This document shows positions 33,000 to 40,969 of a DNA stretch of 64,000 nt, one piece after another. A program made the translations under genes and the position numbers. This stretch comes from the human T2T-CHM13v2.0 reference genome, Homo sapiens: the NCBI RefSeq assembly GCF_009914755.1, contig NC_060945.1; one strand, given 5' to 3'. Below the pieces are notes generated by a model, which did not search any database, was not told the DNA's origin, and saw nothing but the letters and a program-made list of their open reading frames with translations. Position 1 is the stretch's first letter, and the number at the start of each line of letters is the position of its first letter.

Positions 33000-33440
33000 T
33001 GCTGCAATTTGAATGTCTCCTTCAAAATTCATGCTGAAACCTAATCCCCATTGTGTGACTATTGAGAGGTGGGAATCTAAAAGTGATTGGATCATAAGAG
33101 CTCTGAGCTCATGAATAAATTAATCCATTAATAGATTAATGGATTAATGGGTTAATGGATTAATTGGTTACCATGAGAGTGGAAATGGGGGCTTTATAAG
33201 AAGAGGAAGAGATATCCGAGCTAGCATATTACCATGCTCAGCCCCTTTCCCCTTTACCACGTGATGCCTTGCTGTTTCAGGACTGTAGTCTCACCACCAG
33301 CAAGAAGGCCCCTCACCAGATGATACTTCTGTTACCTTGTACTTCTCAGCCTCCAAAACTGTAAGACATACATTTATTTTCTTTAGATATTACCTAGTTT
33401 AAGGTATTCTGTTATAAGCAACAGAATTTTGACTAATACA
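33000..33440 (+). mobile_element. MST-type (MSTB2/MSTC-like) solo LTR
   Basis: TG..CA ends, GGATTAAT repeats, perfect 5-bp TSD GCAAC (32995-32999 / 33441-33445). Confidence 0.9.
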
Positions 33441-34409: not shown

Positions 34410-35020
<611 letters not shown>

Positions 35021-35901: not shown

Positions 35902-37474
35902 ACATGGCATATTGGAGGCAGTGTTAGCATGCCTCTCCCACTAGGAAAGACAAAAGATATGTAGATATTCACACTGTGAACTTTTTTCCAATGAGCAATG
36001 CAGGAACTTAACAGGAAAACTGAAATCCACAGGTTTTTTGAAAGAAGTGGCAGGCCATAGCCTACACCATGAGCCAGGCGAAAAACTGTTAAGTCCTCAG
36101 AGTGTGAGAGGGAGAGAGACTGTCTCTAGGATATGTTCCCCCATTGGGGAACCTGGCAGTCTAGCTTATGAGGAAAGGCCTTAACCTACCTAGCACTGGA
36201 ACTGATTTAGGTGGCAGTGAGGAAGATAAAAGTAGGAATAGCAGTGGGAGGAGACTTGTGTTAATTTCCAGTCTCCAGCACAGACGAAGGGAAATCGTTC
36301 CTTATTCTGCCTCACAGGGGACCTCATGAAGTCTGCCAACCCAAATGAATTTTGCGATATAACCTCAAGTGGGGAAGAACTCCCTTAGCCAGAGCCGGGG
36401 CAGGCAGGGTTGTAGGGTGCAGGCAAGTGGGAAGTGTGTTACAGCCATAAGTGCAGGAGCTGGGCACCCAGGCTGTGTGGGAGAACTGGAAGGGATGTGG
36501 CCAGAAGGCTGTAGTTCTTGTATTCATAGGAAGGTAGATGGTCCGGAGCAGTTTTGAGTTCTGAGCTTAGATGACCTGGAATGTAGCTCACTCCTGCTAC
36601 CAGAAAACTATGGGTGTGAGATCTGTCCTTCCCAGCGCATAGGAGCTGGGTGGGGTTTGCTGCAGCATGTTACTCCCCACTCTCTGTATGAACTATTCTT
36701 TGCAGCAGAGGCAGTTACACTCCTCTCTGTAACATTACCCCAGTTGGCAGAAAACTACCCTCCCACCCAACAGCAACAGGGGCCTTGGTTTGCTCCACAT
36801 GCAGAGATTCAGAGAATAGACCTGCTTGACCCATCCCCCAGCTGGCTTTGCTCCTATACTGGCCATGGTAGCTTAAGGCAAGCACAAATTCCAAAGCTAC
36901 TCTGACAGCTGATGCACTTTTCCAAGCACCACCTCCTGACTGGAAGCCAACCGACACAGTCCATTATAGCATCAACAGATAGAATAACACTGTACCCAGG
37001 AAGGGGAAAACTTGTGCATGACCTCAGCTATCACCATTGCCTGCAGCAACCTGGCTAACCAGGAGGTTCTGAGTCTGTCCAGGTGACCTGTTCATTACTT
37101 GCAGGTGTTCTCCATCAACAGCCCGGAATGTGGCAGCCACACTGTGTAGGTAATCCCAGAGGAACACAGCATATACAGTAGCCTGGCTTTCAGGGACTCC
37201 TACTTCTAGAAGAACAAGGAGCGTACCACATTAAGGGGACACCTCATGGGACAAAAGAACTCAAACAGCAGGCTTGAGGTCCAGATCTCTCTGCTGACAG
37301 GGTTTCTTTCAGCAAAGAAGCCATTGTAATGCTGGGCTCAGCACCGAAAATCTATGGTTCGACTCCAACAGACAGGCAGCTCTGGTGTTTGCAAAGAGTC
37401 TTGGAGAAGGGGACTTCTTTCCCCCCTTGTTTATCACTGCAGACACATCTGGGGCTCTTCTTATGGAAGCTCAG

Positions 37475-37841
37475 TGTATTAGTCTGTTTGCACATGGCTG
37501 TAAAAAACTATCTGAGATTGGGTAGTTTATAAAGAAAAGAGGTTTAATTTACTCACAGTTCCATATACAGGGGAGACCTCAGGAAACTTACAGTTATGGT
37601 GGAAGGTGAAGGAGAAGCAAGGCATGTCTTACAGGGTGGCAAGAGACAGCGAGAGTGAGGGGAGAATGGGAAAACACTTTTAAACCATCAGATCTCATGA
37701 AAACTCATTCACTATCATAAGAACAGCATGAGAGAAACCACCCCCATGCTCCAATCACCTCTCACCAGGTACCTCCCTCAATACATGGGAATTATAATTC
37801 TAGATGAGATTTGGGTGAGGATACAGAGTCAAACCATATCA
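37475..37841 (-). mobile_element. THE1D-like LTR (3' LTR of the provirus)
   Basis: TGTATTAGTCTGTT...AAAGAAAAGAGGTTTAAT...GATGAGATTTGGGTG...AAACCATATCA, adjacent to the polypurine tract (TTCCACCCCGGCCC on the + strand). Confidence 0.9.
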
Positions 37842-39600
37842 TTCCACCCCGGCCCATCAAAAATCTCATGTCATTCTCACATTTCAAAACACAATCATGC
37901 CTTCCCAAGAGTCCCCTGAAGTCTTAATGCACTCCAGCATTAACTCAAAAGCCCAAGTCCAAAATCTCATCTGCAACAAGGCAAGAGTCTATCATCTATG
38001 AACACGTAAAATCAAAAGCAAGTTAGTTACTTCCAAGATAACAACGTGGGTACAGGCATTAGGTAAATGCTCCCATTCCAAATGGGAAAAATTGGCCAAA
38101 ACAAAGGGGCTACAGGCCTTATGCAAGTCTGAAACTCAGTGGGAGAGTCACTAAATCTTAAAGCTCCAAAATAATTTCCTTCGACTCCATGTCTCACATC
38201 CAGGGCACACTGATGCAAGACGTGGGCTCCCAAGGCCTTGGGCAGCCCTGCCCTTGTGGCTCTGTAGTGTACAGCCCCTGCAGCTGCTTTCATAGCCTGG
38301 TGTTAAGTGTTTGCTGCTTTTCCAGGTGCACAGTGCAAGCTATTGATGAATCTATCATTCTGGAGTCTGGAAGAAGGTGACTTTCTTCTCATGGTTCTAC
38401 TAGGCAGTACCCCAGTGGGGACTCTGTGTGGGGGTGCCAACCCCACATTTCCCCTCCGCATTGTCCTAGTAGAGGTTCTCTACCAGGGCTCCACTCCTGC
38501 AGCAGACTTCTGCCTGGACATCCAGGTGTTTCCATACATCTTCTCAAACTTAGGTGGAGGTTCCCAAACTACAATTCTTGCCTTCTGCACACCCACAGGC
38601 TCCACATCACATGGAAGCTGCCAAGGCCTTGCACCCTCTGAAGCAGCGGCTCAAGCTGTACTTTGGTTTCTTTTAGCCAGTCTCTGCTCTGGCTCCCTTT
38701 TAAACATAAATTCCATTTCAGACCATTTCTTTGTGAATGCATATGACTATACACTTTCAGGAGAAGCCAGGTCACACCTTGAATGCTTTGCTGCTTAAAA
38801 TTCTTTTTTTTTTGACAGATACTCTAATTATCTCTTTCAAATTCATAGTTCCACAGATCTCTGGGGCAGGAACTTCATAGTTCCGCAGATCTCTGTGCCC
38901 CAGCCCATGAAACAATTTTTCCCACCTAGGCCTCTGGGCCTGTGATGGGAGGGGATGGCAAGAAGATCTCTGAAATGCCCTGGAGACATTTACCCCATTG
39001 TCTTGGCTCTTAACATTTGGCTATTCTTTATTTATGCAAATATCTACAGCCAGAGACTTTAATTTCTTCCCAGAAAGTGGGTTTTTCTTTTCTACCACAT
39101 GGTCGGGATGCAAATTTTCCAAACTTTTGTACTCTGCCTCCCTTGTAAACATAAGTTCCATTTCAGACAATCTCTTTGTGAATACATATGACTATGTGCT
39201 TTCAGAAGAAGCCAGGTCACATCTTGCATGCTTTGCTGCTTAGAAATTTTTTTGACAGTTACGCTAATTTTCTCTTTCAAGTTCATAGTTCCACAGATCT
39301 CTGGGGCAGGGACAAAATGCCACTAGTCTCTTTGCTAAGGCATAGCAAGAGTCACCTTTGCTTTAGTTCCCAATAAGTTCTTCATCTCCATCTGAGACCA
39401 CTTCAGCATGGACTGAATGCTAATATCACTATCAGCATTTTGGTCACAGCCATTAAACAAGTCTCTAAAGAGCTCCAAACTTCCCTACATCTTCTTGCCT
39501 TTTTCTGAGCCCTCCAAACTGTTCCAATCTCTGCTTCCAAAGCCACTTCCACATTTCAGGCATCTTATAGCAGTGCCCCAAACTTCTGGTACCAATTTTC
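37842..39600 (-). mobile_element. THE1D/MSTA-type MaLR internal region
   Basis: typical THE1-int sequence; element-sense 5' end GAAAATTGGTACCAG (PBS region) at 39600. Confidence 0.9.
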
Positions 39601-39824
39601 TGCTTCTCTTTGAAGGTCACTGCAGCCATCAGCTTCACAGAATTTACTTTTCTTCACATCGCTGTTTTTTTTTTTTTTTTTTAAACACTGCAGCCCCTCC
39701 CTGCCTGGCCTGTGCTTCCCACCAACGATGACCTTTCTGCAACTTCAGTGCCAGTGGAATCCCAGATCTGCGGCTGCTTCTGAGCACTGCTGACTGCTTC
39801 TAGGTCCCAAAACCACCAATCAGA
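39594..39824 (-). pseudogene. HPF1: 5' fragment of HPF1 (C4orf27) mRNA, probable 5' UTR plus codons ~1-43, occupying the THE1 5' LTR position
   Basis: minus strand from 39735 translates [47 protein letters not shown] versus remembered human HPF1 [43 protein letters not shown] (11/17 and 17/22 identities); ATG has become AAG; substitutions R>H, G>R, P>L, R>Q fit CpG decay. Confidence 0.88.
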
Positions 39825-39841
39825 AGAGCCAAACCATGTCA
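39825..39841 (-). mobile_element. 17-bp terminal remnant of the THE1 5' LTR
   Basis: AGAGCCAAACCATGTCA matches the other LTR end AGAGTCAAACCATATCA (37825-37841); followed by CTCAT, matching left TSD CTCAG (37470-37474). Confidence 0.8.
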
Positions 39842-40969
39842 CTCATCAAAGGTAGACCCATAGACAGCCCTTCTGGAACTGCAGGGTGACTGCATTCCCA
39901 CAGAAGGAGCACCCTCCAGGTCCAGGCCTGCATGGGAAATAGAGTCACAATTCCTCTCTATTTAGACATTCCTGAAGATGAAAAGAGGTGCTTGTCTAAT
40001 CTGAATAGCTGGAACACTCGTTCAAGAGTGTGTTTGGGAAGTGAGTAACTTTCCTGGGAGCTGAGTTGGCTCCAATCCTTCTATCTGATAAGATCTCAGT
40101 GTGTTTCACTGAGAGCTCCCCCAGCCACCTATGTCAAGGCTGGGACCTCTGCCCACCATTGGGTACTGCATTATGCACCTGCTTTAGCCACAGCAGGTTT
40201 TTACCAGGGGCACCTCCTCTTTGGGCCTGAAGCCTGAGGTATTCAACCAAGTAAATAAAATACTAGGAGAAAATAAAGAAAGAAAGAAATACACAGACTA
40301 CAGAGGAATAAGATAAGCTTCAAGAGACTTCTGCCATTCCAACCCTAGAGGAGAAAGTGAACTTGTTCACACACTGAGCACACTGCTGCTACAACCAGAG
40401 CCAAGAAAGCCATCAGACAAAGACTCTCTATAACTGAGGAAATCATACAAACTCTTCACTCCTGAAAGCACCAAGACCTGAATTAGTCTAGAAGAAACAA
40501 TAAACATCCTTCAGGAAGAAAAAAGAAATTGAAGAAACAGTCAAATAAAAAATAAATTCAAGTATAATTAGAAGAAATAATCTAACCAAATAAGAGAAAT
40601 CAGAAAGATATTTCTGGTGCTATGACAAAATAAGGTGCTATAACTGCCCAAAATATCACACTAGCCGCCCCCCCCCCCCCAGCAATGGATCCAAACCCAG
40701 ACAAACCTTTTGAAACACCAAATTTTAAAAATTCAAAAATTTGATTATTAAGCTATTCCAGAAGGTGTCAGAGAAAGGTGAAAACCAACATAAAGAAATT
40801 TTAAAAAATTTTAGGATACAAATAAAAACTTTTCTAAAGAGATAGATATCTTAAAGAAATGCAAATCAGAATTTCTGGAAATGAAAGGTACACTTAGAGA
40901 ATTACAAAATGGAGGGGAAAGTTTCAACAATGGACTACAAAGGGAAGAAGAAAAAATTTCATAGCTCAC

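What the first reader, a model, noticed from the sequence alone, without database searches (positions are those of the whole stretch)
37470..39846. THE1 provirus whose 5' LTR is replaced by the 5' end of a cellular mRNA (HPF1): apparent gene capture by a MaLR element
Seen, in element (minus) sense: TSD, 17 bp of LTR terminus (TGACATGGTTTGGCTCT), ~230 bp of foreign sequence, PBS region and internal sequence, polypurine tract, full 3' LTR, TSD (CTCAT/CTCAG on the + strand). Seen: the foreign piece has no TSD or terminal poly(A) of its own and is co-oriented with the provirus. Knowledge: it translates like the HPF1 N-terminus ([17 protein letters not shown]), HPF1 being the PARP1/2 serine-ADP-ribosylation cofactor; L1-made retrocopies normally keep the 3' end, whereas this keeps only the 5' end. 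Inference: RT jumped from the THE1 RNA onto a co-packaged HPF1 mRNA, copied to near its 5' end, then returned to the LTR tip, keeping both att ends so integrase gave a normal 5-bp TSD. This would be a fossil of retroviral-style transduction by a non-autonomous MaLR. The six-frame track misses it because the ATG is now AAG.
Basis: partly seen in the sequence, partly recalled or inferred. Interest (0 to 1): 0.92.

Follow-up and report, generated by a model that had tools for sequence, protein, structure and literature searches.

The report
Old THE1 element carrying HPF1 fragment
An ancient, dead retrovirus-like element on human chromosome 21 carries the spliced front end of the host HPF1 messenger RNA where its left-hand repeat should be, a rare fossil of a copying enzyme hopping between RNA templates.

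Summary
On the minus strand, window 37475-39841 is a 2,367-nt MaLR (THE1-class) provirus between 5-nt flanking repeats, 4 of 5 bases alike. It has a full 367-nt 3' LTR and a 1,753-nt internal part. That part starts with a primer-binding site matching tRNA-Leu(TAA). Only the first 17 nt of the 5' LTR remain.

The rest of that LTR is replaced by 231 nt (39825-39595) of host HPF1 mRNA in the same orientation. This covers exon 1 from 24 nt upstream of the RefSeq start, joined without the 3,995-nt intron to the first 81 of 160 nt of exon 2. Translated, it hits only HPF1 chains in the PDB.

The inner junction lies in a 7-nt microhomology that abuts the primer-binding site. The outer junction shares 1 nt.

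Divergence points to roughly 40-70 My. No second copy turned up in T2T.

Best reading (0.7): two template switches late in minus-strand synthesis inside an ERVL-type particle. This is LTR-mediated retroposition, a known kind (Tan 2016), here replacing an LTR. Repair of a later break with HPF1 cDNA is not excluded, because no primate orthologues were on hand.

The element is old and broken and has no envelope gene. Nothing is referred.

The parts
37470..37474 (.). Flanking 5-nt repeat on the element's 3' side (host DNA)
   Evidence: It agrees with 39842-39846 at 4 of 5 bases. The chance of at least 4 of 5 is 0.016.
37475..39841 (-). Whole element as it stands: LTR tip, HPF1 piece, internal part, 3' LTR (2,367 nt)
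37475..37841 (-). Complete 3' LTR (367 nt)
   Evidence: It aligns over positions 1-367 to the 5' LTRs of 6 of 9 kin, over 1-362 and 3-367 in two more, and over 79-367 in one. Identity is 78-83% in eight kin and 70% in one.
37842..39594 (-). Internal part as a whole (1,753 nt). It opens with a primer-binding site matching tRNA-Leu(TAA) and holds the broken remnant of the single putative gag reading frame of MaLRs. The bounds of that gene and the places of its breaks are not given.
   Evidence: the first 394 nt are 80-82% identical to 39 kin rows, out of 5,281 first-look candidates of which 40 were scored; the primer-binding site matches at 14 of 18 ungapped and 16 of 18 gapped; the longest open stretch on the element's strand is 88 codons; 0 of 6 ORF pieces reach a Pfam cut-off.
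39595..39825 (-). Captured host piece: spliced 5' end of HPF1 mRNA (231 nt). It corresponds to chr4:173118099-173117961 joined to chr4:173113965-173113885. The exon 1 / exon 2 joint lies between window 39688 and 39687.
   Evidence: Over 218 aligned bases the identity is 82.1%. There are 15 CpG-transition differences among 38 CpG-site positions. Non-CpG differences are 21 of 180.
39595..39601 (-). Inner junction: 7 nt shared by HPF1 exon 2 and the element (the last LTR base plus the 6-nt spacer before the primer-binding site)
   Evidence: The spacer is present in 9 of 9 kin. It is identical to this copy's bases in 3 of 9 and one base off in 6 of 9. The chance of at least 7 nt at a random joint is 3.8e-4.
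39665..39682 (-). 18-nt A run inside the HPF1 piece, at the place of the parental run of six A near the start of exon 2
39825..39841 (-). Tip of the 5' LTR (17 nt). Its last base is also the first base of the HPF1 match, a 1-nt overlap.
39842..39846 (.). Flanking 5-nt repeat on the element's 5' side (host DNA)

Best explanation
A non-autonomous ERVL-MaLR element of the THE1 class was being reverse-transcribed in a particle supplied by an autonomous relative. That particle also held a spliced HPF1 mRNA.

Inferred sequence of events:
1. First-strand synthesis began and transferred normally, which is why the 3' LTR is complete.
2. Near its end, the growing minus-strand DNA had copied the primer-binding site and the few bases beyond it. 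There it left the element's RNA and re-annealed through 7 complementary bases inside HPF1 exon 2.
3. It copied the mRNA back across the exon 2 / exon 1 joint and ran off at or near the mRNA's 5' end.
4. It then landed, with 1 nt of overlap, 17 nt from the end of the plus-strand strong-stop DNA and copied that tip.
5. The product had both proper ends, so integrase inserted it with a 5-nt target duplication.

The product had no 5' promoter or R/U5 and was dead on arrival.

Shown here: the anatomy, the spliced HPF1 origin, the two junctions, the age and the lack of further copies. Inferred: the order of switches, the co-packaging, and the template used for the tip.
For: - RNA origin: exon 1 and exon 2 are joined without the 3,995-nt intron.
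- Orientation: the piece is co-oriented with the element. This model requires that.
- Inner junction: it lies in 7 shared nt that abut a primer-binding site matching tRNA-Leu(TAA). Chance of at least 7 nt is 3.8e-4.
- Start of the piece: it begins 24 nt upstream of the RefSeq HPF1 start. It does not begin at a random place in the mRNA.
- LTR tip: it ends sharply, with 14-16 of 17 matches followed by 0-2 of 13.
- 3' LTR: it is full length, which rules out an aberrant first strand transfer.
- No L1 hallmarks: there is no terminal A tail and the target duplication is 5 nt.
- Age: the HPF1 piece is at least as diverged as the element. Non-CpG JC distance is 0.127 for the piece against about 0.10-0.116 per lineage from kin pairs. 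Capture therefore dates to about the time of integration.
- Literature: microsimilarity-guided double template switches in particles are the published model for LTR-mediated retrocopies (PMC5131818). Particles carry cellular RNAs, and reverse transcriptase switches templates often (PMC5086612).
Against: - No orthologous locus of another primate could be read, so capture before integration is not shown.
- Repair of chromosome breaks with reverse-transcribed spliced mRNA also gives partial, tail-less inserts flanked by microhomology (PMC4516963).
- The outer junction shares only 1 nt, and the chance of at least 1 nt is 0.44.
- The start of the piece is not shown to be a real HPF1 transcript start. 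It lies 24 nt outside the annotated gene.
- The spacer of this element's own parent is inferred from kin. It is identical in only 3 of 9.
- Textbook RNase H action should have removed the template beyond the primer-binding site. The model therefore needs a second genomic RNA or incomplete degradation.
- The target duplication is 4 of 5, not 5 of 5.
Confidence: 0.7

Rival explanations
1. Repair after integration. A normal THE1 provirus later suffered a chromosome break in its 5' LTR and lost about 350 nt. The break was patched with a partial reverse-transcribed HPF1 cDNA through microhomology (RT-product-mediated break repair).
For: Such repair inserts spliced, partial mRNA copies without A tails and with 1-7 nt microhomologies. 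In mouse zygotes it does so together with MaLR/ERVL sequences (PMC4516963, passages read). The junctions here have 7 nt and 1 nt of overlap.
Against: - The lost stretch would coincide by chance with the LTR body. One edge is 17 nt from the element's end and the other is within the 7 nt next to the primer-binding site.
- The insert would by chance be co-oriented with the element.
- The insert would by chance begin at the mRNA's 5' end, whereas the published inserts are cut at both ends.
- The piece is not younger than the element.
Confidence: 0.2
2. DNA-level copying from an existing HPF1 copy. The donor would be the chr5 processed pseudogene, the chr9 duplicated pseudogene or a lost copy, copied by replication template switching or gene conversion.
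For: Two other HPF1 copies exist: LOC646058 on chr5 and LOC389705 on chr9. Microhomology at junctions also fits replication-based switching.
Against: - The chr9 copy keeps its introns.
- The chr5 copy starts about 74 nt downstream of this piece's start. It also lacks bases that this piece has.
- No other match exists in T2T: the search gave 5 places in all.
Confidence: 0.04
3. A chimeric RNA served as the genome. An HPF1-THE1 fusion transcript, made by read-through or splicing, was packaged and copied.
For: The piece is co-oriented with the element and lies 5' of the primer-binding site.
Against: - The breakpoint is 81 nt into the 160-nt exon 2, not at a splice site.
- A genome lacking R/U5 would give a 3' LTR without a normal U5 end, yet the 3' LTR is complete.
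- This model does not explain the 17-nt LTR tip upstream of the piece.
Confidence: 0.03
4. An L1-made processed pseudogene of HPF1 that happens to lie next to, or was hit by, a THE1 insertion.
For: An 18-nt A run lies inside the piece.
Against: - The A run sits at the parental run of six A and has HPF1 sequence on both sides.
- The piece keeps the 5' end of the mRNA, not the 3' end.
- The piece lies inside the element's flanking repeats and LTR tip.
- No HPF1 sequence lies outside the element on chr21.
Confidence: 0.01

Closest known systems
LTR-mediated retrocopies (Tan et al. 2016, PMC5131818). Three human cases are reported, among them FAM8A1 inside a HERV-K provirus (Jamain 2001, known to me only as cited there).
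   Same: A partial, spliced host mRNA copy sits inside one LTR element. It replaces part of the element, has microsimilarity at a fusion point, and shows no L1 hallmarks. The published model is a double template switch in the particle.
   Different: In the cases described in the text I read, internal reading frames are replaced and both LTRs are expected to co-exist. Here the 5' LTR itself is replaced except for 17 nt, and the inner switch abuts the primer-binding site. The carrier is a non-autonomous MaLR.
Retroviral transduction of host genes (oncogene capture)
   Same: Host RNA sequence is joined to viral sequence by reverse-transcriptase template switching at short similarities. Tan et al. 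cite this as the analogue.
   Different: From recall: classical capture starts from a read-through chimeric RNA, keeps both LTRs and yields a transmissible genome. This product lost its 5' promoter and left no further copies.
RT-product-mediated double-strand-break repair (Ono et al. 2015, PMC4516963)
   Same: Spliced partial cDNA, no A tail, and microhomology of 1-7 nt. MaLR/ERVL reverse transcription is implicated.
   Different: Those inserts lie at breaks and are cut at both ends, without regard to element landmarks. Here both edges coincide with landmarks of reverse transcription, and the piece reaches the mRNA's 5' end.
L1-made processed pseudogene, e.g. LOC646058 (HPF1 pseudogene, chr5)
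   Same: A spliced copy of the same gene. The chr5 copy also crosses the exon 1/2 joint.
   Different: The chr5 copy runs on through later exons. The chr21 piece keeps only the first 43 codons plus the leader. It has no terminal tail and lies inside an LTR element with a 5-nt target duplication.

Membership tests
ERVL-MaLR, THE1 class | LTRs of about 350-370 nt with retroviral end dinucleotides | tested here: met
   The 3' LTR is 367 nt. It aligns end to end with the 5' LTRs of 6 of 9 kin and nearly so with 2 more. The size range for THE1 is recalled, not taken from a call.
ERVL-MaLR, THE1 class | 5-nt target-site duplication | tested here: met
   4 of 5 bases agree. The chance is 0.016. No paralogue of the flanks was found in the window to show the empty site.
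ERVL-MaLR, THE1 class | Primer-binding site complementary to the 3' end of a leucine tRNA | tested here: met
   against tRNA-Leu(TAA) plus CCA: own copy 14 of 18 ungapped and 16 of 18 gapped; nine kin 14-18 of 18 gapped. The four other Leu isoacceptors score lower: own copy 10-12 ungapped and 13-15 gapped. ARAGORN confirmed 4 of the 5 cut loci as tRNA-Leu. It found nothing in the CAA locus. Other amino acids were not compared.
ERVL-MaLR, THE1 class | Short internal part with one putative gag frame and no pol or env (Zuo 2023, PMC10735291, Introduction read) | tested here: inconclusive
   The internal part is 1,753 nt including a private duplication, which is too short for pol or env. 0 of 6 ORF pieces reach a Pfam cut-off. 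The longest open stretch on the element's strand is 88 codons. No intact relative was on hand to recognise the gag frame itself.
ERVL-MaLR, THE1 class | Thousands of dispersed copies in the human genome | tested here: met
   There were 5,281 first-look candidates for the first 394 internal nt. Of these 40 were scored, and the 39 kin rows are all 80-82% identical.
ERVL-MaLR, THE1 class | Assignment to a named subfamily (THE1A-D as against MSTA/B) by a repeat library | not testable with these tools
No Dfam/RepeatMasker library is available here. The chr21 mask table has no names and only fragments.
LTR-mediated retrocopy (Tan 2016) | Host sequence is a spliced mRNA copy | tested here: met
   Intron 1 (3,995 nt) is absent, and the exon joint is as in chr4 HPF1.
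LTR-mediated retrocopy (Tan 2016) | Flanked on both sides by the same LTR element, which is discontinuous (part replaced, not merely interrupted) | tested here: met
   A 17-nt LTR tip lies on one side and the primer-binding site and internal part on the other. About 350 nt of LTR is missing between them.
LTR-mediated retrocopy (Tan 2016) | Microsimilarity at the fusion points | tested here: met
   7 nt at the inner joint. Only 1 nt at the outer joint.
LTR-mediated retrocopy (Tan 2016) | No L1 hallmarks (terminal A tail, long target duplication) | tested here: met
   The internal A run sits at the parental A tract.
LTR-mediated retrocopy (Tan 2016) | Both LTRs co-exist in the product (stated as an implication of the model) | tested here: not met
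   Only 17 nt of the 5' LTR are present. This is the respect in which the locus departs from the described cases.
L1-made processed pseudogene | Keeps the mRNA 3' end with an A tail and has a target duplication of about 7-20 nt | tested here: not met
   Only the 5' end (leader plus 43 codons) is present, and there is no tail at either border.
RT-product-mediated break repair (Ono 2015) | Insert of partial cDNA at a break, made after the target sequence was already in place | not testable with these tools
This needs orthologous loci of other primates.

The most novel reading that the evidence does not exclude
The locus records an accident at the very last step of minus-strand synthesis in an extinct ERVL-type particle. 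The DNA left the THE1 RNA just past the primer-binding site, ran off the 5' end of a co-packaged HPF1 mRNA and landed on the tip of the plus-strand strong-stop DNA. The provirus was therefore integrated with a host mRNA in place of its 5' LTR.

Such an LTR-replacing capture by a non-autonomous MaLR is not described in the texts I could read. It would also define a searchable signature: LTR tip, then a spliced mRNA 5' end, then the primer-binding site. That signature could be used to census which host mRNAs rode in germ-line particles some 50 My ago.
Probability: 0.6. Interest if true: 0.55.

Novelty: new member of a known kind. Interest (0 to 1): 0.45.

Why it matters
- Very few host-mRNA captures by LTR elements are recorded in the human genome. 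Three are reported in Tan 2016. This one is unusually legible: both junctions, the splice joint and the primer-binding site are all still readable after tens of millions of years.
- It ties a MaLR, which has no reverse transcriptase of its own, to template switching onto a host mRNA.
- It dates an HPF1 transcript in the germ line of early simians.
- It adds an unannotated HPF1 pseudogene fragment on chr21. RefSeq lists no gene in this window.
- No function is expected. The piece is the leader plus 43 codons with a changed start position, and the element lost its 5' promoter.

Tried and rejected
**Readings rejected**
1. L1-made retrocopy. The A run is internal and sits at the parental A tract, and the piece is the 5' end of the mRNA.
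2. THE1 inserted into an older HPF1 retrocopy. No HPF1 match lies on chr21 outside the piece.
3. DNA donor on chr5 or chr9. The chr9 copy is unspliced. The chr5 copy starts about 74 nt further in and lacks bases.
4. Fusion at a splice site. The breakpoint is 81 nt into the 160-nt exon 2.
5. Chimeric RNA as genome. The 3' LTR is complete.

**Steps that led nowhere**
- No paralogue of either flank exists in the window, so the empty site could not be shown.
- Pfam gave nothing at cut-off for 6 ORF pieces.
- Rfam gave 0 matches in the window.
- There are no tandem repeats in the element, and the composition is unremarkable.
- The chr21 mask table is fragmentary and unnamed.
- Which of chr4 or chr9 was the source is not settled. 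At 12 sites where they differ, the piece agrees with chr4 at 6, with chr9 at 2 and with neither at 4.

**Literature searches**
- THE1 + HPF1 gave 1 unrelated paper.
- C4orf27 + pseudogene gave 1 unrelated paper.
- The main text of Tan 2016 mentions neither HPF1, C4orf27 nor THE1.

**Not counted**
I did not count stops and frameshifts of the putative gag frame. No intact relative was on hand and no consensus may be built. I can say only that the longest open stretch is 88 codons, and that one duplication with a small loss interrupts the internal part.

**Corrections of my own work**
- One search was a term-syntax error, corrected.
- In one search an anchor for chr9 exon 1 failed. It was redone.
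- One search gives 18 and 81.

Full report
**Anatomy.** Read on the minus strand, the stretch 39846-37470 holds, in order:
- a 5-nt flanking repeat
- 17 nt that match the start of an LTR
- 231 nt of foreign sequence
- a 1,753-nt internal part
- a 367-nt LTR
- the second 5-nt repeat

The two flanking repeats agree at 4 of 5 bases (chance 0.016). The 17-nt tip matches the start of the element's own 3' LTR at 15 of 17, and the LTR starts of eight kin at 14-16 of 17. The following 13 nt match at only 0-2 of 13. The tip therefore ends sharply.

**The foreign piece is the spliced 5' end of HPF1 mRNA.**
- A search of the whole T2T genome with 236 nt gave 5 places:
  - the piece itself
  - HPF1 exon 2 on chr4 (70/77, 91%, E 3.6e-20)
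  - the unprocessed pseudogene LOC389705 on chr9 (also 91%)
  - the processed pseudogene LOC646058 on chr5 (67%, contiguous across the exon joint)
  - a 35-nt chance match to the A run on chr1

  Gene names come from the RefSeq table.
- The upstream 139 nt align to HPF1 exon 1 at 107/139, E 2e-26. The alignment begins 24 nt upstream of the RefSeq gene start.
- Exon 1 ends at its donor and is followed at once by the first 81 of the 160 nt of exon 2. The 3,995-nt intron is absent.
- The piece thus covers the leader and the first 43 codons.
- Its 25-aa translation found four distinct PDB sequences, all Histone PARylation factor 1, residues 19-43 (best E 2.2e-5).
- An 18-nt A run lies where the parent has six A. 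It is a slipped tract, not a retroposition tail.

**Junctions.** I fetched nine natural kin that have a 5' LTR.
- In 9 of 9 kin a full LTR ends 6 nt before the first base of the primer-binding site. In one of them this was found by extrapolating the LTR alignment.
- Those 6 nt plus the last LTR base equal the last 7 nt of the HPF1 piece. The spacer is identical in 3 of 9 kin and one base off in 6 of 9.
- The inner crossover therefore lies in a 7-nt microhomology (window 39601-39595). The chance for a random joint is 3.8e-4.
- That microhomology abuts the primer-binding site directly.
- The primer-binding site matches the 3' end of tRNA-Leu(TAA) plus CCA best among five Leu isoacceptors. The own copy matches 14 of 18 ungapped and 16 of 18 gapped. 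The kin match 14-18 of 18.
- The outer joint shares 1 nt.

**Family.**
- The 3' LTR aligns over its whole length to kin 5' LTRs at 78-83% identity in eight kin and 70% in one.
- The first 394 internal nt gave 5,281 first-look candidates. Of these 40 were scored, and all 39 kin rows are 80-82% identical.
- The internal part is too short for pol or env, and 0 of 6 ORF pieces reach a Pfam cut-off.
- Zuo 2023 (PMC10735291; Introduction and Results read) describes MaLRs as non-autonomous, with one putative gag frame. It describes the THE1 group as simian-specific, younger than about 70 My, with more than 40 My of change.
- No repeat library was on hand, so the name THE1 and any subfamily rest on recall.
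- The internal reading frame is broken. The longest open stretch on the element's strand is 88 codons. I could not count the stops and frameshifts.
- One stretch of about 190 nt occurs twice in this copy, with 88% and 93% identity between the two parts. It occurs once in 3 of 3 kin. It is a private rearrangement and by its divergence a later one.

**Age.**
- Against chr4 HPF1 the piece is 82.1% identical over 218 nt.
- 15 of its 39 differences are CpG transitions, among 38 CpG-site positions.
- Non-CpG differences are 21 of 180, a Jukes-Cantor distance of 0.127.
- Half the pairwise distance to kin is 0.10-0.116.
- At 2.2e-9 per site per year (a recalled rate) this is 45-58 My. A slower rate would push it past the 70 My bound of the family.
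- I give roughly 40-70 My.
- The element is old and broken and has no envelope gene. No referral condition is met.

**Mechanism.** Four features are expected if the capture happened late in minus-strand synthesis:
- the co-orientation
- a switch just beyond the primer-binding site
- a host copy that runs to the mRNA's 5' end
- retention of just the LTR tip, which integration would be expected to need (my inference)

The complete 3' LTR shows that the earlier steps were normal, and it excludes a chimeric RNA genome. This matches the published model of microsimilarity-guided double template switching in particles (PMC5131818, passages and section 6 read). It also matches what is known of cellular RNA in particles and of template switching (PMC5086612, passages). 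The order of events and the template for the tip are inferred.

**Main rival.** The rival is repair of a later chromosome break with HPF1 cDNA. Such repair gives spliced, tail-less, microhomology-flanked inserts (PMC4516963, passages). It does not explain why both edges fall on landmarks of reverse transcription, why the piece reaches the 5' end, or why the piece is as old as the element. I put 0.7 on capture during reverse transcription and 0.2 on later repair.

**Novelty.** The kind is known. Tan et al. report three human LTR-mediated retrocopies, but the list is in a closed supplement. Their main text names none of HPF1, C4orf27 or THE1. My searches found no paper on this locus. The departure from the described cases is that the 5' LTR itself, not an internal frame, is replaced. 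No second copy of the chimera was shown in T2T (matches in closed regions are not shown). The product was a dead end.

**Limits.**
- No other primate genome was available.
- No repeat library was available.
- Supplements were closed.

Noticed in passing
inside the element's internal part (window 37842-39594); places not repeated: A stretch of about 190 nt occurs twice in this copy (two parts, 88% and 93% alike), with a small loss next to the second copy. Three of three kin have it once. By its divergence it is younger than the insertion.
   Followed up: partly
window 39665-39682: An 18-nt A run inside the HPF1 piece sits exactly where the parental exon 2 has six A. This is slippage, either during copying or later.
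   Followed up: yes
L003 and L007 (chr9:15002600-15007599, LOC389705): An unprocessed (duplicated) HPF1 pseudogene. It is 89.9% identical to chr4 over 1,082 nt including intron flanks, and 94.5% identical over the exon 1/2 span.
   Followed up: partly
L004 (chr5:180641522-180642656, LOC646058): A processed HPF1 pseudogene. It starts about 74 nt downstream of the chr21 piece's start, directly after an A run that follows Alu-like sequence. It lacks 4 nt at the exon 1/2 joint relative to chr4. That could reflect another donor site or a later loss.
   Followed up: no
L006 (chr4:173117500-173118700): Three different 5' bounds for HPF1-derived sequences. The chr21 piece starts 24 nt upstream of the RefSeq start. 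The chr9 pseudogene's annotated start and the chr5 retrocopy's start fall about 47-50 nt downstream of it. This suggests dispersed transcript starts.
   Followed up: no
L005 (chr1:45728035-45728069, MAST2 intron): A 35-nt match (94%) to the exon joint plus the A run of the piece. I take it for chance, driven by the A run.
   Followed up: no
window 33110-33170 and 34686-34736: Two short AT-rich tandem arrays upstream of the element.
   Followed up: no
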